Part shown: one piece after another, positions 16,646 to 31,566 of the stretch | How the letters are laid out: every line of letters starts with the position of its first letter | Position numbering within the stretch: position 1 is the stretch's first letter | Source of the DNA: a bacterium | Lineage (GTDB): Bacteria > Chloroflexota > Dormibacteria > Aeolococcales > Bog-877 | Reading direction: 5' to 3' | Assembly: GCA_021816695.1 (NCBI GenBank) | Contig: JAKAXE010000001.1 | Coordinates: 67,344-131,343, forward strand | Length of the DNA stretch: 64,000 nucleotides | Program-made: the position numbers and the translations under genes | Notes under the pieces: model-generated | The model's database searches: none | What the model was told of the DNA's origin: nothing | What the model saw: only the letters and a program-made list of their open reading frames with translations

Positions 16646-17119
16646 ATGCCCCGTTCTCCCCTCGCCCCCACCCGTCACCAGGGGGCGAGGACCATTCTGG
16701 TCGCTGACCGAGACCTCCGGTCCCGCACCGCCACGTCCGCGATCTTGCGCCGTCTGGGATTCGAGGTGGCCGAGGCGGAGTCGCCCCGCTCGGCACTCGC
16801 CCAGGCCCGCTCCGGACCCTACTCCTGCGCCATCCTTGACCTGAACATCTCGGAGGCCGGCGCCTTCGATCTCTGCCGCCGGCTGCTCTCGGCTCCGGGC
16901 TGGAGCTGGACCCCGGTGATCTTCACCAGCTCGCGCCCCCCCGAGCCCGAGCAGAGGGACACGCTCCAGCAGGGCGGATTCACGTTCCTGCTCAAGCCGT
17001 TCCGCTCCGGGCAGCTCCTCTCAGCCGTGGGCGATGCCCTGGCCGCCACCACGCCGTTGCGTGAATCCCGGCCCGATCGGAGGCGGGCGCTCTCCACCGT
17101 CGAGGCCGCCACCGCCTGA
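16646..17119 (+). CDS. Single-domain CheY-like response-regulator receiver protein
   Basis: ILVADRD (acidic pocket), phospho-acceptor context AILDLN, conserved T/S and LLKPF lysine. There is no output domain. Confidence 0.75.
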   Translation: MPRSPLAPTRHQGARTILVADRDLRSRTATSAILRRLGFEVAEAESPRSALAQARSGPYSCAILDLNISEAGAFDLCRRLLSAPGWSWTPVIFTSSRPPEPEQRDTLQQGGFTFLLKPFRSGQLLSAVGDALAATTPLRESRPDRRRALSTVEAATA

Positions 17120-17131
17120 GCGGACCGGTGC

Positions 17132-19276
17132 CTAGCCCCCCGGGCCCGGTGCCTGAGGCGACCCCGATGGCGACGGCACGGATGACGGGGATGGGGAGGG
17201 AGATGCCGATGGGGTCGCGGGCGCGCTGGGGGTGACGACCGGGGTGGGGGTCGGGGTAGGCGACGGCGTCACGCTGCCTCCCCCGAGCACCTTGGTCGAC
17301 GGTCCGGTCCCTGGCAGGTAGTAGTCAACCTCACCGTTCACGGTGCGGCTCACCAGGCCCTGAGGGGGTGTGTACCAATGGTTCGGTACCCCCGCCAGAG
17401 CGGCCTCCATGAACTGGTTCCAGAGGGAGGCGGCTCCGCTGATGCCATTCAGCCCGCCACCGTACATGGGGGCGTCGTTGGCGTTCCCCACCCAGTCTGC
17501 CCCCACCAGCTGAGGCGTCCAGCCCACGGCCAGGTTGTCGCGGTAGCTGTTGGAGGTCCCGGTCTTGATCGCCGCCGTGTGCCCCGGCAGGATCAGGGGG
17601 GTGTTCGGTCCGAAGGCCAGGAGCCGGTTGGAGTTGCGGGAGAGGATGGTGTTCATGATGTAGGCGACCTGGGGGGATAGCACTTGGGTGGCGGCGGTCG
17701 GCGCCTGGTAGAGGATCTGCCCCGTCTGACTCTCCACCGTGTTCACGAAGTGGGCCGGGTGCAGCACCCCTTGGGAGGCGAAGACCGACCCCGCCTGGGC
17801 CAGTTCCCAGAGGGGAATCGGATAGGCCCCCAAGGTCATGCTCGGCCCGTACGAGGAGTCCGGTCCGTTCAGGGTTGTCACCCCCATCGCCCGGGCGGTG
17901 GTGAGGATCTGCGGGATGCCGGTGGCGAGCTCGACCCGGACGGCCGGCACGTTGAGCGAATTGCCCAAGGCGACCTGGATCGGCACCACCCCGGCGTAGG
18001 TTCCCTCGTAGTCGTGGACCACGAAGGGCCCGCCGCCCGGCCCGCCGGTGGGGAGGCTGTAGGGGCTGTCCAGAACCGGGGTGGTCATGGTGACCTGGTG
18101 GTCCGCGATGGCGGTGGAGTAGGTGAAGAGCTTGAACGTCGACCCCGGCTGCCGGGCCACCGCCGCCATGTCGATCTCGCCCCCCGGCACATTGGGCCCG
18201 GCACCGCCGACCCAGACCTCGATCTGCCCGGTGGCGGGATCCTCAGCCACCAGGGCACCGTCGGTCATGTGCATCGCCTGGTGCCTGGCGATGTCGGCCG
18301 TCACCAGCTGCTGTGCCTTCTGGTTCAGCGCCACGTTGAGGCTGGTGTAGACCCGCAGCCCCATGGTGGCGTAGCCCGAGCCGAAGTGCTGCTGCAGCCA
18401 GACGCGCACCTGGTCGACGAAGTAGGGCGCGTTGTCCACCGGGGCCTCGCTTCCCGAGCCCAGAGCGGGCGGCTTGGCCAGAACCGCCGCCGCCTCCCGG
18501 GCGGGAAGCTCCCCGTACTTGACCATGGCGGCCACCACTGCCTGCTGGCGAAGGCGCGCCCCCGCCATGTTGCTGAAGGGGTCGAGGTAGGACGGTGCGG
18601 GCAGGAGGCCGGCGAGCAGGGTGGCCTCGGGGAGGGTGAGCTGCGCGGCGCTCACCCCGAAGTAGGTCTCGGCGGCGGCCTGGATCCCGGTCGCTCCCTG
18701 TCCGAAGTAGACGTCATTCAGGTAGTCGTCCAGGATCTGGCTGCGGCTGAGGTGCGAGGTCAGCTCGTTTCCGTAGAGGATCTCCTTCACCTTGTAGGTG
18801 ATCGACTTGTTGTCGGTGAGGTAGAGGAGCTTGGCCACCTGCTCCGGGATCGTGCTGGCGCCCTGGGCGGCGCTGTGATGAATCAGGTCGTAGACCCCGG
18901 CCTCGACGATCCGCCCCACGTCGAAGCTCGGCGCCGTCCAGAAGCTGTGGTCCTCGATGGCGACCACCGCCTTCTGCATCGCCGGGGCGATCTGGTTAAG
19001 CGGCACCGGGATCCGGCTGGTGCCGGAGGGATGGAGGTCCGCCACCAGCTGGTTGCCCTGGCCGTACACCACAGTGTCTGTGGGGAGTTGCCGGGGAGGC
19101 GGCAGCGAGCTGTAGGCACGGGCCAGCGCCGTCGTGGGCACCGCCAGCGCAACCACCGCCACCAGCACGCCCATTAGTGCCAGGCCCACGATCTGCCGGC
19201 CGTGGGGAGCTGCGGCGCCACCACGCCGGCGGCCCCGGCGCGGTCGCTGGCGGGACTCGGGATTCAGTTCACGCAT
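17132..19276 (-). CDS. Class A penicillin-binding protein (bifunctional transglycosylase/transpeptidase, PBP1A-type)
   Basis: N-terminal TM segment. GT51 motif AIEDHSFW. Transpeptidase motifs STFKLF (SxxK), SNS (SxN) and KTGTS (KTG). Pro/Ser/Thr-rich C-terminal tail. Confidence 0.9.
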   Translation of the reverse strand: MRELNPESRQRPRRGRRRGGAAAPHGRQIVGLALMGVLVAVVALAVPTTALARAYSSLPPPRQLPTDTVVYGQGNQLVADLHPSGTSRIPVPLNQIAPAMQKAVVAIEDHSFWTAPSFDVGRIVEAGVYDLIHHSAAQGASTIPEQVAKLLYLTDNKSITYKVKEILYGNELTSHLSRSQILDDYLNDVYFGQGATGIQAAAETYFGVSAAQLTLPEATLLAGLLPAPSYLDPFSNMAGARLRQQAVVAAMVKYGELPAREAAAVLAKPPALGSGSEAPVDNAPYFVDQVRVWLQQHFGSGYATMGLRVYTSLNVALNQKAQQLVTADIARHQAMHMTDGALVAEDPATGQIEVWVGGAGPNVPGGEIDMAAVARQPGSTFKLFTYSTAIADHQVTMTTPVLDSPYSLPTGGPGGGPFVVHDYEGTYAGVVPIQVALGNSLNVPAVRVELATGIPQILTTARAMGVTTLNGPDSSYGPSMTLGAYPIPLWELAQAGSVFASQGVLHPAHFVNTVESQTGQILYQAPTAATQVLSPQVAYIMNTILSRNSNRLLAFGPNTPLILPGHTAAIKTGTSNSYRDNLAVGWTPQLVGADWVGNANDAPMYGGGLNGISGAASLWNQFMEAALAGVPNHWYTPPQGLVSRTVNGEVDYYLPGTGPSTKVLGGGSVTPSPTPTPTPVVTPSAPATPSASPSPSPSSVPSPSGSPQAPGPGG

Positions 19277-19489: not shown

Positions 19490-19966
19490 TCACCCGATCA
19501 GGTGCCCGGAGGATCCATAGGCTCTCGCCAACCGGGAGCCTCGCCCTTCTGTCGCCGCCGTGTCGCCGCGGTTGTAGAGGCGACAGCGGCGCAGCGACAG
19601 GCAGCCGCACCCGACGCAGCCGGTGAGGTCGTCGCGGAGACGCTCTAGAGCCGCGATTCTGAGGTCAAGCTGGCTGCGCCACCCCACGGAGAGCTCCTGC
19701 CAGTCCGCGCGGGTGGGGGTTCGTTGGTCCGGGAGCCTGGCCAGGGCGGCGCGGATCTCCTCCAGTGTCAGTCCGACCATCTGGGCCGCTGAGATGAACG
19801 CGAGTCGACGCAGGGTGGCGCGGGGAAACAGGCGCTGGCCGCCCGGCGAGCGCTCAGAGGTGAGCAAACCCCTGGCTTCGTAGAAGCGGATCGCGGAAGC
19901 GGCCACTCCACTTCGGCCGGAGAGCTCGCCGATGGAGAGGCGGGTCGGCAGGACGGGCACGGCCAA
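19490..19966 (-). CDS. soxR: SoxR-type MerR-family redox-sensing regulator ([2Fe-2S])
   Basis: MerR-type HTH (LSIGELSGRSGVAASAIRFYEARGLL) and the C-terminal CVGCGCLSLRRCRL cluster, matching the SoxR CIGCGCLSxxxC Fe-S ligand motif. Confidence 0.85.
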   Translation of the reverse strand: MAVPVLPTRLSIGELSGRSGVAASAIRFYEARGLLTSERSPGGQRLFPRATLRRLAFISAAQMVGLTLEEIRAALARLPDQRTPTRADWQELSVGWRSQLDLRIAALERLRDDLTGCVGCGCLSLRRCRLYNRGDTAATEGRGSRLARAYGSSGHLIG

Positions 19967-19985
19967 ATGTTCCTCACGAAGATCC

Positions 19986-20016
19986 TTGACATCAACTTAA
20001 CATTAAGTATTAGCCT
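19986..20016 (+). promoter_or_regulatory. Candidate SoxR-controlled promoter: TTGACA -35, ACTTAA-ca-TTAAGT dyad centred in a 19-bp spacer, TAGCCT -10, ATG 7 nt downstream
   Basis: TTGACA at 19986-19991, dyad at 19995-20008 and TANNNT box at 20011-20016, with the transketolase ATG at 20023. This is the only AT-rich patch between divergent soxR and tkt. Over-long spacers with a central dyad are the hallmark of MerR/SoxR promoters. Confidence 0.5.
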
Positions 20017-20022
20017 GCTGCC

Positions 20023-20763
20023 ATGACAACAGTGCTCCCTAACGCTGCGACGGTTCCTGCCTCAGTCCCGTCCCGGATCGTGGGCTATGAAGGGTTGGGC
20101 GGCCTTCTGGACCTGATTTCGGGGGACGGGAAGCACTCCTCGGCGTCCACCTCGACCCTCGACGTCTTGTGGGTTCTTTATGACCGCATCCTCGAGGTCG
20201 GACCGCAGACCGTCGGCGATCCTTCTCGGGATCGGTTCATTCTCTCCAAGGGCCACGGCCCAGCCGGCTACTACGCAGTCCTGGCTGCCAAGGGCTTTAT
20301 CTCCGCGGAGCTCTTGGCGGAGTTCGGATCGTTCAACTCGCCATTGGGCCATCACCCTGATCGTCTGCTGGTCCCAGGGGTCGAGGTCTCCAGCGGATCA
20401 CTCGGCCACGGCCTGGCGATTGCGGTAGGCGTGGCCGCGGGGCTTCGCATCCAGGGTCGGCTGAAGCCGCGGGTCATCTGCCTGCTGGGCGACGGTGAGT
20501 TGGAGGAGGGGTCCAACCACGAGGCGCTCTGGCTGGCCTCGATCCACCGGCTCTCATCGCTGACGGCCATCGTGGTCGACAATCGCAGCTCGGAGCTGGG
20601 CTGGCCGGGCGGCGTGGACGCCCCCTTCGCCGCGGCGAGATGGCAGGTGGAGCGCGTCGGGGCACATGACCAGGCCGCTCTGGAAGTGGCCCTCCGGCGT
20701 CGATGTGAGACGGGCCCCAACCTGGTGGTCGCCGCCACCTACCCTGGCCCGGTTCCGGAATGA
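20023..20763 (+). CDS. Transketolase, N-terminal (TPP-binding) subunit of a split transketolase
   Basis: Carries GHGPAGYYA, GSLGHGLAIAVG and LLGDGELEEGSNHEAL TPP-binding signatures. Ends with a 4-nt overlap to the next gene. Confidence 0.85.
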   Translation: MTTVLPNAATVPASVPSRIVGYEGLGGLLDLISGDGKHSSASTSTLDVLWVLYDRILEVGPQTVGDPSRDRFILSKGHGPAGYYAVLAAKGFISAELLAEFGSFNSPLGHHPDRLLVPGVEVSSGSLGHGLAIAVGVAAGLRIQGRLKPRVICLLGDGELEEGSNHEALWLASIHRLSSLTAIVVDNRSSELGWPGGVDAPFAAARWQVERVGAHDQAALEVALRRRCETGPNLVVAATYPGPVPE

Positions 20764-21662
20764 GGCAGCGGGTTGCCGACGAGCTGGGGCGAATGCTGGA
20801 CCGCGACGACCGGCTGGTGGTGGTCCTCGCGGCCATCTCCACTGGCCAGTTCGCCTCCGCCCGGGCCAGACATCCGCAGCGCGTAATAGACGTGGGAATC
20901 CGGGAGCAGGCGCTCATCGGGGTCGCAGCCGGGTTGGCCCACGCGGGGCTGCGCCCGGTGGCCCACACCTTTGCACCCTTTTTGTTGGAACGCCCCTTCG
21001 AGCAATTGAAGATGGATCTATGCCAGCAAGGGCTGGGCGCCATCCTCGTCAGCATCGGCGCCTCCTACGACTTCCCCGAGTACGGCACCTCACACTTTTG
21101 TCCGGAGGACGTGGCTCTGCTGGATACCTTGCCGGGGATCGAGGTCCACGTTCCCGGCCATGCGGACGAGGCGGTCACTTTCCTCCGGAAGATGGTGCCC
21201 GAGGACGGGATCGGCTATCTGCGGCTATCCGAGGCCACCAATGCCCGCGCCGAGCCCACACCCCCCGGGGGTATGCGTGTGCTCCGAAGTGGCGCCGCTG
21301 GGTCGGTGTTGGCCGTCGGGCCGATGCTGGATCCCGTGGTGGCGGCGGTGGAGGGCCTGGACGTGACCCTCATTTACGCGAACACCGTGAGGCCCCTGGA
21401 TGAGGCAACCGTCCTGGCCTCCCTCGGCCGGCCCGCGGTGGCGGTGGTGGAGCCGTACCTCGCGGGCACCTCGGTGGGGGTGATCAGCCAGAGTCTGGGC
21501 CACATCCCCCATCGGATCCTCGGTGTGGGAGTCACGCGGCGCGACCTGCGTCGCTACGGCAGTCGCCGCGAGCATGATCTGGCGCACGGGCTGGATCCGG
21601 CGTCCTTGCGCCGTACCCTCCTGGACTTTCTCGTGACCGCTGGGCCGACTCCGGGTGCGTGA
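20760..21662 (+). CDS. Transketolase, C-terminal (pyrimidine-binding/C-terminal domain) subunit
   Basis: Has the transketolase Pyr-domain pattern (VIDVGIREQALIGVAAGLA, FAPFL) plus a C-terminal domain. ATGA-coupled to the N-terminal subunit gene. Confidence 0.85.
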   Translation: MRQRVADELGRMLDRDDRLVVVLAAISTGQFASARARHPQRVIDVGIREQALIGVAAGLAHAGLRPVAHTFAPFLLERPFEQLKMDLCQQGLGAILVSIGASYDFPEYGTSHFCPEDVALLDTLPGIEVHVPGHADEAVTFLRKMVPEDGIGYLRLSEATNARAEPTPPGGMRVLRSGAAGSVLAVGPMLDPVVAAVEGLDVTLIYANTVRPLDEATVLASLGRPAVAVVEPYLAGTSVGVISQSLGHIPHRILGVGVTRRDLRRYGSRREHDLAHGLDPASLRRTLLDFLVTAGPTPGA

Positions 21663-21965
21663 TAGCCCCCCACCAGCTGGGAATGGTGCAGGTGGCGCTG
21701 GTGTTCGGTCCCAGCCGAGCGGTTGACTGGTTGGGACGTCGTCACCGGCCCCGGTCTGCCGGTGCCATGAGTGTGTCTCCCAGCGGGCCCGGACGGTCAA
21801 CGGATTTGGGTGATCGCTCGGACGAAAACGTGCAGTGCGCGGGGACCGGCGGTTGAGTGAGGTTAGGGATCTCGCGGCGGTTGGCCCGCTCCACCACTCC
21901 CAGCGGCGCCTCCGCTCCTCGCCGGCAGACGCCCGCCCGGTGGATCTGCCAGTCTAGAGGCTCGG

Positions 21966-22510
21966 TAATGAGCAGCATGCCGCCTTTCGAGGAGCGCCGG
22001 GAGCTCCCGGTAGAGCCCTCCCAGATGCCTTACCTCCGGCCGCCCACCCCACGGGCGAACTGGAGGTTCACCGGGCTGGCGCTCGGGGGGCTAGGCCTGC
22101 TGGCCGTCCTCCGGTTGGTCGTCTCCCACCCGGCGCCCGCCCCCTCCCATGCCTCGCCGCAGGCTGCGGTCGCCGGCTACCTCAATGCCGCCGTCGCCGG
22201 CTCCCAGGCCGGTCTGGAGTCGTACCTGGCCCCCAGCGACCGTCAGGGGGCCGCTGCCATGCTCAGCGCTCTCCGCGCCGACCGGGTGCGGCTGGTCTCC
22301 CCCTCGATCGGTCCGACAAGCGTCGAGGGGGCCACCGCCCAGGTGGAGGTGGCGCTGGAGGTCTGCTATCGGAAATCCTCCTCGGCCCCGTACACCTGCG
22401 AGCTTCTGAGCCACGAGCCGCTGGGACTCTCCTCGGAGATCCTGTGCCAGGACCTCGCCGGGCGCTGGTACGTAACGACCCTTCTGAAGCCGTCGCCGCT
22501 GACCGGCTAA
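21966..22510 (+). CDS. Hypothetical membrane-anchored protein
   Basis: ATG at 21966 (MSSMPPFEE...), a single TM (FTGLALGGLGLLAVLRLVV) and a soluble domain of ordinary composition. The track ORF starts earlier at 21857. Confidence 0.4.
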
Positions 22511-22521
22511 GGAGGCGGCAC

Positions 22522-23937
22522 CTATCCGGCCGCGGGAGCCTCCAGGGAGGGCACCACCTGCCGTTCGGGGTCGAGCAGCCGGGTGAGCTCGTCCTCGGAT
22601 AGGGAGGTGCGCTGGCGGGCCACCTCGCGCACCGTGGCCCCGGTCTCGAAGGCCTCGTGGGCGATGGCCGCCGCGGCGTCATAGCCGATCGCCGGCACCA
22701 GACCGGTGCAGATTGCGAGTCCGCGCTCCAGCATCTCCGGTCCGCGCTCGGTGGCCACCAGGCCGTCCACTGCCCGCTGCGCGAAGTTGTCCACCGCCCG
22801 GGCCAGAAGCTCCATCTCGGTGAGCAGGTTGTGGGCCGCCACCGGGAGCATCACGTTGAGTTCCAGGATGGAGCCGGCGGTGCCGGCGAAGCTCACCGTG
22901 GCGTCGCACCCCAGCACCTGGGCCACCACCATCAGCAGGGCCTCGCAGATCACCGGGTTGACCTTGCCGGGCATGATCGAGGATCCCGGCTGGACCGCGG
23001 GGAGGCTCAGCTCGCCGATCCCCGCCCGCGGTCCGCAGGAGAGGAGACGGATGTCGCTGGCGATCTTGTAGGCGCTGATGGCCGCCGACCGCACCGCCGC
23101 CGAGGCGAAGACGACAGCATCGAGGGTCGACTGAGCCTGGAAATGGTTGTCGGTCTCGCGCAGCTGGGGGTCGTAGATGGGACGGAGGCGCTCCACCACC
23201 CGGGCCGCGAACTCGGGGTGCCGACCGATCCCCGTCCCGACCGCCGTGCCTCCGAGAGCGACCTCGGTCAGCTGGACCCGTGCCGCTTCCAGCCGCTGCA
23301 GCGCTCGCTCCACCTGGCCTCGGTAGCCTTCGAACTCCTGTCCGAGCCGGATGGGGGTGGCATCCTGGAGGTGGGTCCGCCCGGTCTTGATCACCGGCCA
23401 CAGCGCCTCCCGCTGCGCCGCCAGGCTGTTGGCCAACCGCTCCATGGCCGGTCGGAGCTGGTCGCGCAGGGTGGCCAGCGCCGCCAGGTGGATGGCGGTG
23501 GGGAAGACGTCGTTGCTGGACTGCCCGAGGTTGACGTGGTCGTTGGGATGCACCAGCCCGCGGTCGCCACGGTCCGCTCCCAGCAGCTCCAAGGCCCGGT
23601 TGGCGATCACCTCGTTGGCGTTCATATTGGACGAGGTGCCGCTGCCGGTCTGGAAGATGTCGACGACGAACTCGCCGTCGAAGCTCCCCTCGGCCACCTC
23701 GCCGGCGGCGGCGGCGATCGCCCGGGCCCGCTCCTCGGCCAGCAGGCCGAGGTCCAGGTTGACCAGCGCGGCCTCGCGCTTGATCGCCCCCAAGGCGGCG
23801 ATCAGGGCCCGGGGCAGGCGCAGGGTGGAGATGGGGAAGTTCTCCACCGCGCGCTGGGTCGAGGCGCCGTAATAAGCGCGGGCCGGCACCGCCAGCTCGC
23901 CCATGGAATCGCGCTCCAGCCGAACTTCTGCGTCCAC
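22522..23937 (-). CDS. fumC: Class II fumarate hydratase (fumarase/aspartase family)
   Basis: GSSIMPGKVNP signature and QTGSGTSSNMNANEVIANRA, 471 aa. The fumarase-versus-aspartase assignment leans to fumarase but is not decisive from sequence alone. Confidence 0.8.
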   Translation of the reverse strand: MDAEVRLERDSMGELAVPARAYYGASTQRAVENFPISTLRLPRALIAALGAIKREAALVNLDLGLLAEERARAIAAAAGEVAEGSFDGEFVVDIFQTGSGTSSNMNANEVIANRALELLGADRGDRGLVHPNDHVNLGQSSNDVFPTAIHLAALATLRDQLRPAMERLANSLAAQREALWPVIKTGRTHLQDATPIRLGQEFEGYRGQVERALQRLEAARVQLTEVALGGTAVGTGIGRHPEFAARVVERLRPIYDPQLRETDNHFQAQSTLDAVVFASAAVRSAAISAYKIASDIRLLSCGPRAGIGELSLPAVQPGSSIMPGKVNPVICEALLMVVAQVLGCDATVSFAGTAGSILELNVMLPVAAHNLLTEMELLARAVDNFAQRAVDGLVATERGPEMLERGLAICTGLVPAIGYDAAAAIAHEAFETGATVREVARQRTSLSEDELTRLLDPERQVVPSLEAPAAG

Positions 23938-27828: not shown

Positions 27829-30800
27829 ATGGTCCGCGTGCGAAGGCCTGGCAGGGTGCGAGTCCGATGGTCGATGGTGGGCCAGGCAGGGGGTAGAAGA
27901 TTGGCTGACCGCTCTGGGCCGCTACTGGCCGCCCACCAGTTCTTTCGCCAAGGGCAACCGTCGGCCGAAGGTTGGAGCCAGCTGGTGGCGAAGGGGCGGG
28001 AGTGGGAGGCGTTCTATCGCGATCGGTGGCAGCACGACAAGGTGGTGCGTTCCACCCACGGTGTCAACTGCACTGGTTCTTGCTCTTGGAATGTCTACGT
28101 CAAGGATGGCCTGATCACCTGGGAAAACCAGGCAGTTGACTACCCCTCGCTGGGACCCACCATGCCGGAGTACGAGCCGAGGGGATGCCCCCGCGGTGCC
28201 TCCTTTTCCTGGTACACGTACTCGCCCTTGCGGGTCCGCTATCCGTATGTCCGAGGGAGCCTTCTGATGCTATTCCGGGCAGCGAAGGAGCGGCAGCACG
28301 ATCCGGTGGCCGCATGGGCGTCGGTCGTGGAGGATCCGGAGGCGGCCAGCCTCTACAAGTCCCACCGGGGCAAGGGGGGGTTCGTGCGCGCCTCTTGGGA
28401 CGAGGCCGTGGAGATGATCGCAGCGGCGCACGTCTACACGATCAAGACATATGGGCCCGATCGGGTGGCGGGCTTCTCGCCGATCCCAGCTATGTCGCAG
28501 GTCTCGTATGCGGCTGGGACCCGCTTCCTCTCCTTGATCGGGGGTGTGATCCTCAGCTTTTACGACTGGTACGCCGACCTCCCACCTGCTTCACCTCAGG
28601 TCTTCGGGGACCAGACCGATGTCCCGGAATCTGGCGACTGGTGGAACGCCGGGTATCTGATGATCTGGGGCACCAACCTTCCCATCACGCGGACCCCGGA
28701 CGCCCACTTCATGACTGAGGCCCGGTACCGCGGCCAGAAGGTGGTTGTGGTCTCCCCGGATTACTCAGACCACGTCAAGTTCGCTGACCACTGGCTGCCC
28801 GCTCAGCCCGGCACCGATGCGGCGCTTGCTATGGCCATGGGCCACGTGATCGTGAAGGAGTTCTACGTGGATCGCCAGGTCCCCTACTTCCAGGACTACG
28901 CCCGTCGCTTCACCGACCTGCCCCTGCTCGTGACCCTGGACCAGCAGGAGGAGGGGACGGTCCCGGGGCGGTTCTTGCGGGCCTCGGACTTGGAGGGAGG
29001 CGGAGGAGAAGAGCTCCCCGAGTGGAAGCTCGTGGTTCTCGACGAGGCCACCGGGAACCCAGCCGTGCCCCCCGGCTCAGTGGGGCACCGCTACCAGACG
29101 ACCGAAGGCCAGTGGAATCTGGAGTTGGGGGACCTGCGTCCGGCACTCACCGTCCTCGACCGGGCTGCCGAGCGTCTTGAGGTGAGGCTGCCTCGGTTCG
29201 ATCTCGGGGGCGGTGAGGGAGGCTCGGAGCTCATTCGGGGGGTCCCGGCGATCCGGGTCGGGGGCCACCTGGTGACCACGGTCTACGATCTCATGCTGGC
29301 TCAGTACGGTGTTGTCAGACCTGGCCTGCCGGGGAACTGGCCTAGAGGGTACGACGATCCGGAGCCATGCACCCCGGCCTGGCAGGAGGAGATCACCTCA
29401 GTCGGGGCGCAGCTGGCCACCCGCATCGCCCGGGAGTTTGCCCGCAACGCTGAGGTCACCGAAGGCCGCTCCATGATCGCCATGGGGGCCGGGACCAACC
29501 ACTGGTTTCACTCCGATCTCATTTACCGAGCGTTCCTCTCACTGCTGCTCCTCTGCGGTTGTGAGGGACGGAACGGTGGCGGGTGGGCCCACTATGTCGG
29601 GCAGGAGAAGGTGAGGCCCCTGACCGGCTGGCAGACGATGGCCTTCGCTCTGGATTGGGTGCGGCCACCCCGGCACCAGTCCGCCACTCCGTACCTCTAC
29701 CTGGCAACCGACCAGTGGCGCTACGAGGGGTACGGCGCCGAGGAGCTGGCCTCGTCCCTGGGCAAAGGTCTCTTTCGGGGCCGCCAATTCGCGGACTGCT
29801 ACGTCCAGGCGAGTCGACTGGGCTGGCTGCCAGCCTATCCCAGCTTCGATCGCAGTCCTCTGGATGTCGTCGACGACGCTCGGCGGATGGGTCGGGAGCC
29901 CGCGGACCATGTCATCCAGGAACTCACCGATGGGCGCCTGCATTTCGCCGCCGAGGACCCCGACGCGCCCCAGAACTTCCCCCGGGTGCTGACGGTCTGG
30001 CGGGCCAACCTGCTCGGGTCGTCGGGAAAGGGGCACGAATACTTCCTGAAACACCTGCTGGGCACCAGCGACCCCGCCGTGCGGGCCGAGGAGAGTCCGC
30101 CAGAGCTGCGACCCCAGGAAGTCCGCTGGCATGATGCACCGCCGCGAGGCAAGCTGGACCTGCTCACGACCATCGACTTCCGGATGACCTCGAACTGCCT
30201 CTTCTCGGACGTGGTGCTCCCGGCCGCCACCTGGTACGAGAAGTACGACATCTCGTCGACCGACATGCACCCCTTCGTGCACAGCTTCAACCAGGCGATC
30301 CCCCCTCCCTGGGAGGCCAAGACCGACTGGGACGCGTTCAACCGCATCGCTGCCGCCTTCTCGGAACTGGCAGAACGCCACCTCGGAGTCCGCGAGGACC
30401 TGGTCTGTGCACCGCTGCTTCACGACACCCCAGACGAGATCTCGCAGCCGCTCGGGCAGGTGCTGGACTGGGCCCGCGGGGACTGTTCGCCGGTCCCCGG
30501 GCGCACCATGCCCAAGCTGCTGGTCGTGGAGCGCGACTACCCCGCCGTGGCCGAGAAGATGAAGGCCATCGGGCCGCTGCTGGAGGAGCTGGGCAGCCAG
30601 ACCAAGGGGGCGCATTGGAAGCCGGCGCTCGAGATTGAGGAATTACGGGCCAGCAACGGCACGGTGCAGGGCGGGGTGGCCGACGGACGGCCCCGGCTTG
30701 AGCGAGCCGAGCATGTTGCCGACGCCATCCTGGCGCTCTCCGGGACCTGCAATGGCCGCCTCGCGGTCGAGGGCTTCCGCTCCCTGGAGGGACGCTGCGG

Positions 30801-31566
30801 GGTGCCGCTCGCCGATCTAGCCGCATCGCGCGAGGCGGACCGAATCACCTTCAAGGACACCCAGGTCCAGCCCCGCACGGTGATCACCTCGCCGGAGTGG
30901 TCGGGGAGCGAGGCTCACGATCGGCGCTACGCGCCTTTCACCATCAACGTCGAGAGGGCCAAGCCCTGGCATACCCTGAGCGGTCGGCAGCACTTCTACC
31001 TCGATCACGAGTGGATGCTGGAACTAGGGGAAGGTCTGGCGGTCTTCAAACCACCGCTCAACTACCGCCTCCACTTCGGCGACCAGCAGATCGGGCAGGC
31101 CGGGAGGCTGGAGGTGACGGTGCGCTACCTGACGCCGCACTCCAAGTGGTCGATTCACTCCGAGTACCAGGACAACCTCTTCATGCTGACCCTCTTCCGG
31201 GGCGGCCCGGTGATCTGGATAAGCGAGGACGACGCCGCGGCCATCGACGTGCGTGACAACGACTGGATCGAGGCCTACAACCGCAACGGGGTGATCACCT
31301 GCCGGGCGGCGGTGACCCACCGTCTGCCCCGAGGGGTGTGCCTCATGTACCACGCCAAGGACCGTCATGTGAACGTGCCCCTCAGCGAGCTGCACGGCAA
31401 CCGGGGTGGGGTCGACAACTCCCTGACCAGGGTCGTCTGGAAGCCAACTCACCTCATCGGCGGGTACGCCCAGCTCTCCTTCGGATTCAACTACTTCGGC
31501 CCCACCGGCTCGCAGCGCGATGAGATCACCGTGCTCAGCAAGCGTCAGTCGGAGGTGGTGTACTGA
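27829..31566 (+). CDS. narG: Respiratory nitrate reductase alpha subunit
   Basis: N-terminal FS0 region RWQHDKVVRSTHGVNCTGSCSW and molybdopterin oxidoreductase length. Start is either ATG 27829 or ATG 27874; the track starts at 27763. Confidence 0.95.
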   Translation: MVRVRRPGRVRVRWSMVGQAGGRRLADRSGPLLAAHQFFRQGQPSAEGWSQLVAKGREWEAFYRDRWQHDKVVRSTHGVNCTGSCSWNVYVKDGLITWENQAVDYPSLGPTMPEYEPRGCPRGASFSWYTYSPLRVRYPYVRGSLLMLFRAAKERQHDPVAAWASVVEDPEAASLYKSHRGKGGFVRASWDEAVEMIAAAHVYTIKTYGPDRVAGFSPIPAMSQVSYAAGTRFLSLIGGVILSFYDWYADLPPASPQVFGDQTDVPESGDWWNAGYLMIWGTNLPITRTPDAHFMTEARYRGQKVVVVSPDYSDHVKFADHWLPAQPGTDAALAMAMGHVIVKEFYVDRQVPYFQDYARRFTDLPLLVTLDQQEEGTVPGRFLRASDLEGGGGEELPEWKLVVLDEATGNPAVPPGSVGHRYQTTEGQWNLELGDLRPALTVLDRAAERLEVRLPRFDLGGGEGGSELIRGVPAIRVGGHLVTTVYDLMLAQYGVVRPGLPGNWPRGYDDPEPCTPAWQEEITSVGAQLATRIAREFARNAEVTEGRSMIAMGAGTNHWFHSDLIYRAFLSLLLLCGCEGRNGGGWAHYVGQEKVRPLTGWQTMAFALDWVRPPRHQSATPYLYLATDQWRYEGYGAEELASSLGKGLFRGRQFADCYVQASRLGWLPAYPSFDRSPLDVVDDARRMGREPADHVIQELTDGRLHFAAEDPDAPQNFPRVLTVWRANLLGSSGKGHEYFLKHLLGTSDPAVRAEESPPELRPQEVRWHDAPPRGKLDLLTTIDFRMTSNCLFSDVVLPAATWYEKYDISSTDMHPFVHSFNQAIPPPWEAKTDWDAFNRIAAAFSELAERHLGVREDLVCAPLLHDTPDEISQPLGQVLDWARGDCSPVPGRTMPKLLVVERDYPAVAEKMKAIGPLLEELGSQTKGAHWKPALEIEELRASNGTVQGGVADGRPRLERAEHVADAILALSGTCNGRLAVEGFRSLEGRCGVPLADLAASREADRITFKDTQVQPRTVITSPEWSGSEAHDRRYAPFTINVERAKPWHTLSGRQHFYLDHEWMLELGEGLAVFKPPLNYRLHFGDQQIGQAGRLEVTVRYLTPHSKWSIHSEYQDNLFMLTLFRGGPVIWISEDDAAAIDVRDNDWIEAYNRNGVITCRAAVTHRLPRGVCLMYHAKDRHVNVPLSELHGNRGGVDNSLTRVVWKPTHLIGGYAQLSFGFNYFGPTGSQRDEITVLSKRQSEVVY

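What the first reader, a model, noticed from the sequence alone, without database searches (positions are those of the whole stretch)
19490..21662. SoxR divergently paired with a split transketolase through a classic over-long-spacer promoter
The SoxR gene, identified by its CVGCGCLSxxxC cluster, starts 20 bp from a TTGACA. A perfect ACTTAA-ca-TTAAGT dyad is centred in a 19-bp spacer leading to a TANNNT box, with the transketolase ATG 7 nt downstream (leaderless geometry). In non-enteric bacteria SoxR directly controls a handful of redox enzymes and pumps. A two-subunit transketolase as the immediate target is not a commonly described arrangement. It hints at redox-cycling-drug-responsive control of a TPP enzyme, possibly acting on a non-canonical substrate rather than in the pentose-phosphate pathway.
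Basis: partly seen in the sequence, partly recalled or inferred. Interest (0 to 1): 0.7.

Follow-up and report, generated by a model that had tools for sequence, protein, structure and literature searches.

The report
SoxR switch controlling a transketolase-like enzyme
A redox-sensing regulator (SoxR) sits back-to-back with a two-gene transketolase-like enzyme and almost certainly switches it on through a standard SoxR promoter; the same pairing recurs across at least six bacterial phyla, yet nobody knows what the enzyme does.

Summary
The window has a true SoxR gene, a divergent split TPP-enzyme operon (tktN-tktC), TTGACA, a 19-nt spacer, TAGCCT, and an ATG whose A is the 7th base after the -10 box.

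The perfect ACTTAA-ca-TTAAGT dyad is real but is probably not the operator. In 77 of 80 species-level relatives of this enzyme, a canonical SoxR box (TTGAC-nTCAAGT-nn-ACTTGAnGT) sits at the same promoter position. This is true whether or not soxR is adjacent.

75 of the 77 boxed promoters place the start codon 6-7 nt after the -10 box, so the leaderless geometry is conserved. soxR has its own overlapping leaderless promoter.

The enzyme is transketolase-like, not a bona fide transketolase. It keeps the cofactor-binding and donor-side residues but lacks His261, His461, Asp469 and Arg520 (E. coli numbering).

The link is not new. S. avermitilis SAV_1623 ("putative transketolase") is a published SoxR target, but I could not verify that it belongs to this family. 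The cross-phylum spread and the unknown chemistry are the interesting remainder. The window comes from Candidatus Dormibacterota.

The parts
19490..19960 (-). soxR coding sequence (156 aa from GTG 19960; the open frame extends to TTG 19966)
   Evidence: TIGR01950 SoxR equivalog at 188.3 bits against a cut-off of 116.9; Pfam MerR, MerR_1 and MerR-DNA-bind. Gene callers give 156 aa. Orthologues have their start codon aligned with GTG 19960.
19583..19618 (-). codons for the [2Fe-2S] ligand motif Cys115-x2-Cys118-x-Cys120-x5-Cys126 (CVGCGCLSLRRC)
   Evidence: Translation. The motif is invariant in all 27 adjacent SoxR homologues aligned.
19967..19972 (-). -10-like hexamer GAACAT of the soxR promoter, 6 nt before GTG 19960 (leaderless soxR)
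   Evidence: (T/G/C)A(A/C)CAT lies at the same 6-nt distance from the start codon in 7 of 7 close relatives.
19990..19995 (-). -35-like hexamer TTGATG of the soxR promoter, 17 nt upstream of GAACAT, inside the left SoxR half-site
   Evidence: Sequence and conserved geometry in L086, L087 and the window. Its function is inferred.
19986..19991 (+). -35 hexamer TTGACA of the tktN-tktC promoter
   Evidence: TTGA is invariant and C is present in 71 of 77 orthologous promoters.
19990..20007 (.). SoxR box in the conserved register: CATCAA-CTTAAC-ATTAAG (consensus CCTCRA-N6-TYGAGG); degenerate right half
   Evidence: Matrix from 77 orthologous sites gives +14.3 bits (+ strand) and +20.0 bits (- strand). 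The next best site in the 64 kb scores 9.5. All other registers are negative. Close relatives L090 and L095 carry near-perfect boxes at the same place.
   Evidence: Symmetry in this register is 6/6 only in the window and L091, and 3-4/6 in six other relatives.
20011..20016 (+). -10 hexamer TAGCCT, 19 nt after the -35
   Evidence: At the equivalent positions, A (second base) and T (sixth base) are invariant in 77 of 77 promoters.
20023..20763 (+). tktN: TPP-binding (PP-domain) subunit of a transketolase-like enzyme, 246 aa, probably translated from a leaderless mRNA
   Evidence: Pfam Transketolase_N at 84 bits, covering profile positions 23-239 of 334. Nearest solved structure is the split transketolase N chain 6YAK at 123 bits. 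A start codon lies at +37/+38 from TTGAC in 75 of 77 relatives.
20760..21662 (+). tktC: pyrimidine-binding plus C-terminal-domain subunit, 300 aa, start overlapping the tktN stop (ATGA)
   Evidence: Pfam Transket_pyr at 93 bits. Nearest solved structures are 6YAJ at 80 bits, then DXS at 68 bits. The two-gene arrangement is kept in all 80 loci.

Best explanation
This is a compact SoxR regulatory cassette.

Shown by sequence and comparison:
- A [2Fe-2S] MerR-family SoxR is encoded divergently from a two-gene operon for a transketolase-like TPP enzyme.
- The 62-bp intergenic region holds two overlapping, divergent promoters. Both place the start codon 6 nt after the -10 box, giving leaderless mRNAs.
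- The tktN promoter has the soxS-type architecture: a -35 box, a 19-bp spacer and a SoxR box overlapping the -35 box.

Inferred from established SoxR/MerR mechanism:
- A SoxR dimer sits on the box at all times.
- In the reduced state it holds the over-spaced promoter closed and blocks its own promoter, whose -35 lies in the left half-site.
- Oxidation of the cluster by redox-cycling small molecules untwists the spacer, realigns the -35 and -10 boxes, and turns on tktN-tktC.

The window's box is a weakened, lineage-derived version of the canonical one (G10C, G18T and T16A relative to relatives). The perfect ACTTAA/TTAAGT dyad is most likely a by-product of those substitutions.

The product is a heteromeric TPP enzyme. 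It keeps the cofactor site and the donor-side histidines of transketolase but lacks the residues that anchor sugar phosphates. It probably transfers or cleaves a two-carbon ketol unit on a non-phosphorylated or otherwise unusual substrate, as part of the response to redox-active compounds. This last step is the least certain.
For: SoxR identity.

Promoter anatomy.

Conservation:
- 24 of 80 species-representative loci have a divergent soxR next to tktN.
- 77 of 80 have a SoxR box at the fixed position, whether or not soxR is adjacent. The control rate is 6 of 3339 segments.
- -10 positions A26 and T30 and the 19-nt spacer are invariant.
- The start codon lies at +37/+38 in 75 of 77.

Window site:
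- It is the only SoxR-box match in the 64 kb, and only in the canonical register.
- Close relatives form a graded series from a perfect canonical box (L095 9/9, L090 8/9) to the window (5/9) at the same position.
- The SoxR helix-turn-helix is identical across that series, so there is no sign of changed DNA specificity.

Same cassette elsewhere: Myxococcota and Acidobacteriota, Chloroflexota and Gemmatimonadota.

Literature:
- The SoxR consensus is CCTCRA-N6-TYGAGG, overlapping the -35 box (PMC8867992).
- S. avermitilis SAV_1623, a 'putative transketolase', carries a conserved SoxR site (PMC4146615).
- Its promoter binds SoxR in vitro, and its transcript is higher in a soxR deletion. That fits repression by reduced SoxR.

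Enzyme:
- TPP motifs, the cofactor Glu and His26/66/100/473 (E. coli numbering) are kept.
- His461 is replaced by Gly, and Asp469 and Arg520 are not conserved.
- The N subunit ends near E. coli residue 252, before His261.
- NCBIfam transketolase scores 131 bits against a cut-off of 488.
Against: - The window's right half-site matches only 3 of 6 consensus positions.
- It carries A where 76 of 77 relatives have T (position 16).
- The whole-promoter matrix score of 23.9 is below the family's 5th percentile of 32.9, so binding may be weak.
- The perfect dyad in the shifted register is shared with L091. The window-specific T16A change falls in that dyad's central gap, which is what a shifted operator would tolerate.
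- No transcript, binding or enzyme data exist for this organism.
- I could not confirm that SAV_1623 belongs to this exact enzyme family.
- The E. coli residue numbering is mapped through alignments to 6YAK, 6YAJ and human transketolase plus coordinate ranges, not through a direct E. coli alignment.
Confidence: 0.72

Rival explanations
1. Shifted operator. In this species (and L091), SoxR or another dimeric regulator binds the perfect ACTTAA-N2-TTAAGT dyad centred in the spacer, so the operator has moved 3 bp from the canonical SoxR register.
For: The dyad is perfect and unique in the window. It is also perfect in L091. The two lineage substitutions G10C and G18T each create a match in this register. 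The window-only T16A change lies in the dyad's 2-nt gap, yet it hits the most conserved base of the canonical right half.
Against: - The half-sites ACTTAA/TTAAGT do not resemble the SoxR half-site CCTCAAG, and the matrix scores -44 bits in this register.
- Six of eight lineage members have only 3-4/6 symmetry there, while all keep the canonical position.
- The SoxR DNA-reading helices are identical to those of L090, whose box is canonical.
- Two substitutions both landing on matches has a chance of about 1 in 9, which is not significant.
- A 3-bp shift would rotate the dimer by about 100 degrees relative to the -35 and -10 boxes.
Confidence: 0.1
2. Regulatory decay. The window's SoxR box has degenerated so far that SoxR no longer controls tktN-tktC effectively. 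The over-spaced promoter is then weak or silent, or the operon is expressed from elsewhere.
For: The box and whole-promoter scores lie at or below the family's 5th percentile. The nearly invariant T16 is lost. The MFS transporter that follows tktC in relatives L087 and L089 is absent here.
Against: - soxR, tktN and tktC are intact, with all catalytic and cluster motifs.
- The -35 box, the 19-nt spacer, the -10 A and T, and the 6-nt distance to the ATG are all retained.
- The site still scores 5-10 bits above anything else in the 64 kb.
- S. avermitilis SoxR binds quite degenerate sites in vitro (PMC8867992).
Confidence: 0.1
3. Ordinary metabolic role. TktN/TktC is a working pentose-phosphate transketolase (a split isozyme) that SoxR induces to raise pentose-phosphate flux and NADPH supply under redox stress, analogous to zwf induction in the E. 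coli SoxRS response.
For: The best solved match is a genuine split transketolase (6YAK/6YAJ). TPP motifs and four active-site histidines are conserved. Databases name it transketolase. Liu et al. filed sav_1623 under primary metabolism.
Against: - It scores far below every NCBIfam transketolase cut-off (131 against 488).
- It lacks the last ~90 positions of the Pfam Transketolase_N profile and any counterpart of E. coli His261.
- His461, Asp469 and Arg520, the phosphate- and hydroxyl-anchoring residues, are not conserved across the family.
- From general knowledge, not tested here: streptomycetes that carry this family already have full-length tkt genes.
Confidence: 0.12

Closest known systems
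E. coli soxR-soxS divergent promoter (SoxR box in a 19-bp spacer; MerR-type activation by DNA untwisting; SoxR autorepression)
   Same: - A [2Fe-2S] SoxR with the CX2CXCX5C motif.
- A box overlapping the -35 box of a promoter with a 19-bp spacer.
- The regulator gene is divergent, and its own promoter overlaps the operator.
   Different: - The target is an enzyme operon, not a second transcription factor.
- Both transcripts are leaderless.
- The box is degenerate in its right half.
Streptomyces SoxR regulons (S. coelicolor six-gene regulon; S. avermitilis targets including SAV_1623 'putative transketolase')
   Same: - SoxR directly controls a few enzymes and transporters through CCTCRA-N6-TYGAGG boxes overlapping the -35 box (PMC4146615, PMC8867992).
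- A transketolase-annotated gene is already listed as a target and binds SoxR in an EMSA.
- Many Streptomyces loci found here have the same box in front of tktN-tktC, with soxR elsewhere in the genome.
   Different: - Here soxR is adjacent, and the host is Candidatus Dormibacterota.
- The published work treats SAV_1623 as one item of primary metabolism.
- It does not describe the two-subunit, truncated nature of the enzyme, the family-wide box or the spread across phyla.
- That SAV_1623 belongs to this family is likely but was not verified.
Split (two-chain) transketolase, e.g. Carboxydothermus hydrogenoformans 6YAK/6YAJ
   Same: - A PP-domain chain followed by a Pyr-plus-C-domain chain.
- 47% identity over 150 aa in the N chain and 31% over 223 aa in the C chain.
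- The GDG...N TPP motif, the cofactor Glu and three N-chain histidines are conserved.
   Different: - The N chain is about 30-40 residues shorter at its C-terminus.
- The family has GSLGHGL in place of GSLGQG.
- THAG...GEDG...GRS becomes (S/I)GAS...P(E/A)xG...S(E/L)x, so the counterparts of His461, Asp469 and Arg520 are missing.
1-deoxy-D-xylulose-5-phosphate synthase (DXS)
   Same: The C subunit matches DXS almost as well as transketolase (68 against 80 bits). The LAAIS segment resembles the DXS TPAM segment.
   Different: It scores far below the DXS cut-offs (66 against 466 bits). It lacks the DRAG and R(G) motifs of DXS aligned. It is two-chain rather than single-chain.

Membership tests
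SoxR (NCBIfam TIGR01950, MerR family) | N-terminal MerR-type helix-turn-helix plus a coiled-coil dimerisation helix | tested here: met
   Pfam MerR, MerR_1 and MerR-DNA-bind, E from 1e-12 to 1e-18
SoxR (NCBIfam TIGR01950, MerR family) | C-terminal CX2CXCX5C motif that ligates the [2Fe-2S] cluster | tested here: met
   CVGCGCLSLRRC, Cys115/118/120/126 in the 156-aa protein
SoxR (NCBIfam TIGR01950, MerR family) | score above the curated equivalog cut-off | tested here: met
   188.3 bits against 116.9. The next family (ZntR) scores 60 bits against a cut-off of 143
SoxR (NCBIfam TIGR01950, MerR family) | redox-active [2Fe-2S] cluster and activation by redox-cycling compounds | not testable with these tools
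   needs protein spectroscopy or reporter assays
soxS-type SoxR-dependent promoter | -35 and -10 boxes separated by an over-long 19-bp spacer | tested here: met
   TTGACA, 19 nt, TAGCCT. The same spacing occurs in 77 of 77 orthologous promoters
soxS-type SoxR-dependent promoter | 18-bp palindrome CCTCRA-N6-TYGAGG overlapping the -35 box | tested here: inconclusive
   The window has CATCAA-CTTAAC-ATTAAG: left half 5/6, right half 3/6. The matrix gives +14 to +20 bits against a family median of 26, and the site is unique in the window. The position is orthologous to perfect boxes in L090 and L095
soxS-type SoxR-dependent promoter | SoxR binding and oxidant-dependent activation | not testable with these tools
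   needs EMSA, footprinting or a reporter. The only indirect support is EMSA on S. avermitilis sav_1623 (PMC8867992)
Transketolase (EC 2.2.1.1) | TPP-binding motif GDG-x(25-30)-N and the cofactor-activating glutamate | tested here: met
   GDGELEEGSNHEA...DN in TktN and GIREQ in TktC, conserved across the family
Transketolase (EC 2.2.1.1) | active-site histidines His26, His66, His100 and His473 (E. coli numbering) | tested here: met
   H38, H78 and H110/H111 in TktN, and the TSH histidine in TktC, aligned to 6YAK, 6YAJ and human transketolase
Transketolase (EC 2.2.1.1) | His261 and the substrate- and phosphate-anchoring residues His461, Asp469 and Arg520 | tested here: not met
   TktN ends near E. 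coli residue 252. THAG becomes IGAS, GEDG becomes PEYG and GRS becomes SEA. These positions are not conserved as His, Asp or Arg in the family
Transketolase (EC 2.2.1.1) | score above the curated NCBIfam transketolase cut-offs | tested here: not met
   best scores 130.9 bits (TktN) and 89.9 bits (TktC) against a cut-off of 488
DXS (1-deoxy-D-xylulose-5-phosphate synthase) | score above the curated cut-off and the single-chain three-domain architecture | tested here: not met
   66.3 bits against 466, and a two-chain architecture
Leaderless mRNA | start codon at or within about 1 nt of the position expected for the transcript start (6-7 nt after the -10 box) | tested here: met
   The window has 6 nt between TAGCCT and the ATG. 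75 of 77 relatives have a start codon at +37/+38. The same geometry holds for soxR in 7 of 7 close relatives
Leaderless mRNA | mapped 5' end at the start codon | not testable with these tools
   needs 5'-RACE or differential RNA-seq

The most novel reading that the evidence does not exclude
The truncated two-subunit transketolase-like enzyme is a dedicated SoxR effector that moves between phyla as a soxR-box-tktNC cassette. It would act directly on redox-active small molecules or their products. Possible activities are ketol transfer or cleavage on non-phosphorylated hydroxyketones, dicarbonyls or quinone-derived substrates, or TPP-dependent electron delivery. That would make it a previously uncharacterised enzymatic arm of the bacterial response to redox-cycling compounds, not a pentose-phosphate isozyme.
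Probability: 0.3. Interest if true: 0.7.

Novelty: new member of a known kind. Interest (0 to 1): 0.45.

Why it matters
Outside enteric bacteria, SoxR regulons are small. They are thought to process or export redox-active metabolites, and few of their enzymes have a known reaction.

Here one enzyme family carries a SoxR box at an identical promoter position in 77 of 80 species representatives. It travels with soxR in six phyla, including the uncultured Dormibacterota. That marks it as a core SoxR effector of unknown chemistry.

The question is directly testable: express the two subunits, screen donors and acceptors, and delete the genes in a tractable Streptomyces. The work also yields a well-populated promoter alignment, useful for modelling SoxR operator tolerance and leaderless MerR-type promoters.

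For this particular window the regulatory module itself is ordinary.

Tried and rejected
1. It is kept as a 10% rival.
2. TTG 19966 as the soxR start is rejected in favour of GTG 19960.
3. A frameshifted single tkt pseudogene is rejected. The two-ORF layout is kept in all 80 loci, with varied junctions.
4. A riboswitch or other RNA element in front of tktN: there is no Rfam hit anywhere in the window, and there is no leader to hold one.
5. Sigma-70 and terminator scan: there are no promoter calls because the tool only allows 16-18 nt spacers, and only one terminator-like hit, inside tktN, at the level expected from shuffles.
6. Neighbouring genes as clues to function were uninformative. Flanks differ between lineages (bacterial PH-domain protein, YjbR, methyltransferase). 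Only an MFS transporter recurs, and only in the closest relatives.
7. I tried to prove that S. avermitilis SAV_1623 belongs to this family. The supplementary tables were not held. S. avermitilis did not appear among the 120 best hits or the cluster members read. This stays unresolved.
8. Dietrich et al. 2008 and Dela Cruz et al. 2010 could not be read.
9. A second transketolase or MerR-family gene in the window: none at E<=1e-3.
10. Other SoxR boxes in the 64 kb: none.
Full report
**What is in the sequence**

On the minus strand, 19490..19966 is an open frame whose product is a SoxR.
- NCBIfam TIGR01950 (equivalog) scores 188.3 bits against a cut-off of 116.9. The next MerR-family models score 60 bits or less.
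- Pfam finds the MerR helix-turn-helix and dimerisation helix.
- The protein carries CVGCGCLSLRRC, the CX2CXCX5C ligand set for the [2Fe-2S] cluster.

On the plus strand, tktN (20023..20763, 246 aa) and tktC (20760..21662, 300 aa) overlap by ATGA. They match Transketolase_N and Transket_pyr.

Between the genes lie TTGACA (19986-19991), a 19-nt spacer, TAGCCT (20011-20016), six bases and then the ATG.

The dyad ACTTAA-ca-TTAAGT (19995-20008) is perfect and unique in the window, with 0.03 expected at up to 2 mismatches.

**Origin**

The exact proteins occur on metagenome contigs and in two MAGs, GCA_027317925.1 and GCA_021838905.1. The adjacent class II fumarase has its best named relatives (74-83% identity) almost all in Candidatus Dormibacterota. 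G+C content is 70%.

**The pairing is conserved, and so is the promoter**

An alignment of TktN relatives was used to scan one genome per species. It returned 80 loci, mostly Actinomycetota, plus Chloroflexota and Gemmatimonadota. All have tktN followed by tktC.

- In 24 of the 80 loci, a SoxR homologue (51-64% identity) lies divergently just upstream.
- 77 of the 80 loci carry a canonical SoxR box at one fixed position upstream of tktN: TTGAC-nTCAAGT-nn-ACTTGAnGT. This holds whether or not soxR is adjacent. Control 350-bp segments of the same loci match in 6 of 3339 cases.
- The 77-site matrix shows invariant TTGA, T6, A9, T16, A19, G21 and T22. It also shows a -10 box of form CAnnnT, with A26 and T30 invariant, exactly 19 nt after the -35 box.
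- In 75 of the 77 boxed loci, a start codon lies at +37 or +38 from the T of TTGAC. That is 6-7 nt after the -10 box, the geometry of a leaderless mRNA.
- The same cassette, with a divergent soxR, occurs in Stigmatella (Myxococcota) and in an Acidobacteriota MAG.
- The consensus equals the published Streptomyces SoxR site CCTCRA-N6-TYGAGG and the footprinted sav_7218 site, both overlapping the -35 box (PMC8867992).

**Which register is the operator?**

Aligned to this architecture, the window reads TTGACA TCAACT TA ACATTA AGTAT TAGCCT. The canonical box is then CATCAA-CTTAAC-ATTAAG (19990-20007), centred at 19998/19999.

- The matrix gives +14.3 bits (plus strand) and +20.0 bits (minus strand) in the canonical register. 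The family median is 26 and the 5th percentile is 17.
- The next best site in the 64 kb scores 9.5.

Seven closer relatives (TktN 58-77% identity), six of which share the window's 62-63-bp spacing, form a graded series at the same position:
- L095: TCAAGTTAACTTGAAGT, 9/9 symmetric pairs
- L090: 8/9
- L089 and L092: TCAACTTAACTTGAGCT
- L087: TCAACTTAACTTTAGAT
- L091: TCAACTTAACTTTAAGT
- window: TCAACTTAACATTAAGT

The perfect dyad arises from two substitutions, G10C and G18T. It is shared only with L091. The other six relatives have 3-4/6 symmetry in that register.

The SoxR DNA-reading segments (SIGELSxRSGV...SAIRFYE) are the same in the window and in its six closest relatives, including L090 with its canonical box. 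I therefore read the dyad as a by-product of drift in a weakened canonical box.

One caveat keeps a shifted operator alive at about 10%.

**soxR's own promoter**

Gene callers and the seven close orthologues put the soxR start at GTG 19960, not at TTG 19966. Six of those orthologues start with ATG and L091 with GTG.

- Six nt upstream of it (minus strand) is GAACAT (19972-19967). The same spot holds TAACAT, TACCAT or CGACAT in 7 of 7 relatives.
- Seventeen nt further upstream is TTGATG (19995-19990), inside the left half-site and overlapping the tktN -35 box by 2 bp.

The 62-bp intergenic region thus holds two divergent, overlapping, leaderless promoters. SoxR bound to its box should occlude its own -35 box, as in E. 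coli. This last point is inference from established SoxR biology.

**Mechanism**

The mechanism is inferred from the SoxR/MerR paradigm. A SoxR dimer occupies the box. While reduced, it keeps the 19-bp-spaced promoter inactive. Oxidation of the [2Fe-2S] clusters by redox-cycling compounds distorts the spacer and activates transcription of tktN-tktC.

The published observation that sav_1623 mRNA is higher in a soxR deletion grown without inducer (PMC8867992) fits repression by the reduced form.

**The enzyme**

The nearest solved structures are the split transketolase of Carboxydothermus hydrogenoformans (6YAK at 123 bits, 6YAJ at 80 bits). DXS is nearly as close for the C subunit at 68 bits.

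Family alignments against those sequences show what is retained:
- the TPP motif GDxELxEGSNHEA...DN
- the cofactor glutamate (GIREQ)
- the counterparts of E. coli His26, His66, His100 and His473

Several things are missing or changed:
- The N subunit covers only profile positions 23-239 of the 334-position Pfam domain. It ends near E. coli residue 252, before His261.
- In the C subunit, THAG becomes (S/I)GAS, so His461 is lost.
- GEDG becomes P(E/A)xG, so Asp469 is lost.
- GRS becomes S(E/L)x, so Arg520 is lost.

Family-specific conserved features include GSLGHGL (His in place of Gln) and a GWPGG motif. Scores are far below the NCBIfam cut-offs for transketolase (131 against 488) and DXS (66 against 466).

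Relatives share 55-60% identity across phyla, and the catalytic motifs are invariant. The enzyme is clearly under selection.

My reading is that the TPP carbanion chemistry and the donor-side pocket are kept, while the distal sugar-phosphate anchors are gone. That points to a non-phosphorylated or otherwise unusual substrate. This is inference; no assay exists.

Flanking genes give no further clue, except an MFS transporter fused to the operon in L087 and L089 and absent here.

**What is already known**

- Naseer et al. 2014 (PMC4146615) note in a table footnote that S. avermitilis SAV_1623, a 'putative transketolase', has a conserved SoxR site.
- Liu et al. 2021 (PMC8867992) show by EMSA that SoxR binds its promoter and file it under primary metabolism.
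- Family members are annotated 'transketolase' or 'transketolase A subunit' in a very large number of Streptomyces species and strains.
- I could not obtain the SAV_1623 sequence, so its membership is likely but unverified.
- Full-text searches found no paper describing the family-wide association, the truncated two-subunit nature or the spread across phyla. Dietrich et al. 2008, the broad SoxR-box survey, was not readable.

**Verdict**

The interpretation that SoxR directly controls a split TPP enzyme through an over-spaced, leaderless promoter is well supported. The arrangement is a common, conserved cassette, not a rarity, and its Streptomyces counterpart is already in the literature.

The residual interest lies in the unknown reaction of a core SoxR-regulon enzyme found in six phyla.

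Noticed in passing
L087:4035-5300 and L089:3443-4666; compare window 21663-22510: In the two closest relatives with enough contig, an MFS transporter gene follows tktC directly (overlapping it in L087). That makes a soxR / tktN-tktC-MFS unit. The window has no MFS gene there, only a 180-aa ORF (21968-22510) with no Pfam match.
   Followed up: partly
window 22522-23937 (-): The best named relatives of the class II fumarase (74-83% identity) are almost all Candidatus Dormibacterota. This places the window in that uncultured phylum.
   Followed up: yes
window 19490-19540 (-), C-terminus of SoxR: SoxR in this lineage has a conserved C-terminal extension (GSRLxRAFGxxGHLxG) that the other adjacent SoxR homologues and E. 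coli SoxR lack. It also has SAIRFYE where most others have SALR(F/Y)YE.
   Followed up: partly
L008:530-612 and L025:3674-3745: Two Chloroflexota loci have a perfect SoxR box and a CAGAAT -10 box but no start codon at +37/+38. They appear to make a leadered transcript, unlike the other 75 boxed promoters.
   Followed up: no
L088, L093/L094, L006, L013, L030: A few family members have neither an adjacent soxR nor a recognisable SoxR box. L088 follows a hydantoinase B gene, L093 follows a 78-aa ORF, and L006 follows a methyltransferase. These are possible cases of the enzyme recruited into other contexts.
   Followed up: no
protein hits P0155, P0163, P0247: Some Streptomyces members of the TktN family are labelled 'Ferredoxin fas2' in UniRef or NCBI. 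This presumably reflects similarity to the TPP-binding part of Rhodococcus fascians Fas2. It is a reminder that two-subunit TPP enzymes can serve as electron donors.
   Followed up: no
L097:1116-1166: The Acidobacteriota box reads CTTAAAG-CTTA-CTTTAAG. It is a symmetric variant in which C7 and G18 of the consensus are changed together to A and T. SoxR boxes with T at position 18 therefore exist when the partner position changes too.
   Followed up: no
window ~27985-31566 (+) and onward: A NarG-type molybdopterin oxidoreductase (1193 aa), followed by a NarH-like iron-sulfur subunit, lies about 6 kb downstream. Coordinates are mapped from locus L001. Between it and the SoxR cassette lie PlsY, DegV, a glycosyltransferase and a lipid A-type acyltransferase.
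   Followed up: no
window 16646-19276: Upstream of soxR lie a class A penicillin-binding protein gene (17132-19276, minus strand) with a Pro/Ser/Thr-rich C-terminal tail, and a receiver-domain-like ORF (16646-17119). I annotated both by eye from their translations only.
   Followed up: no
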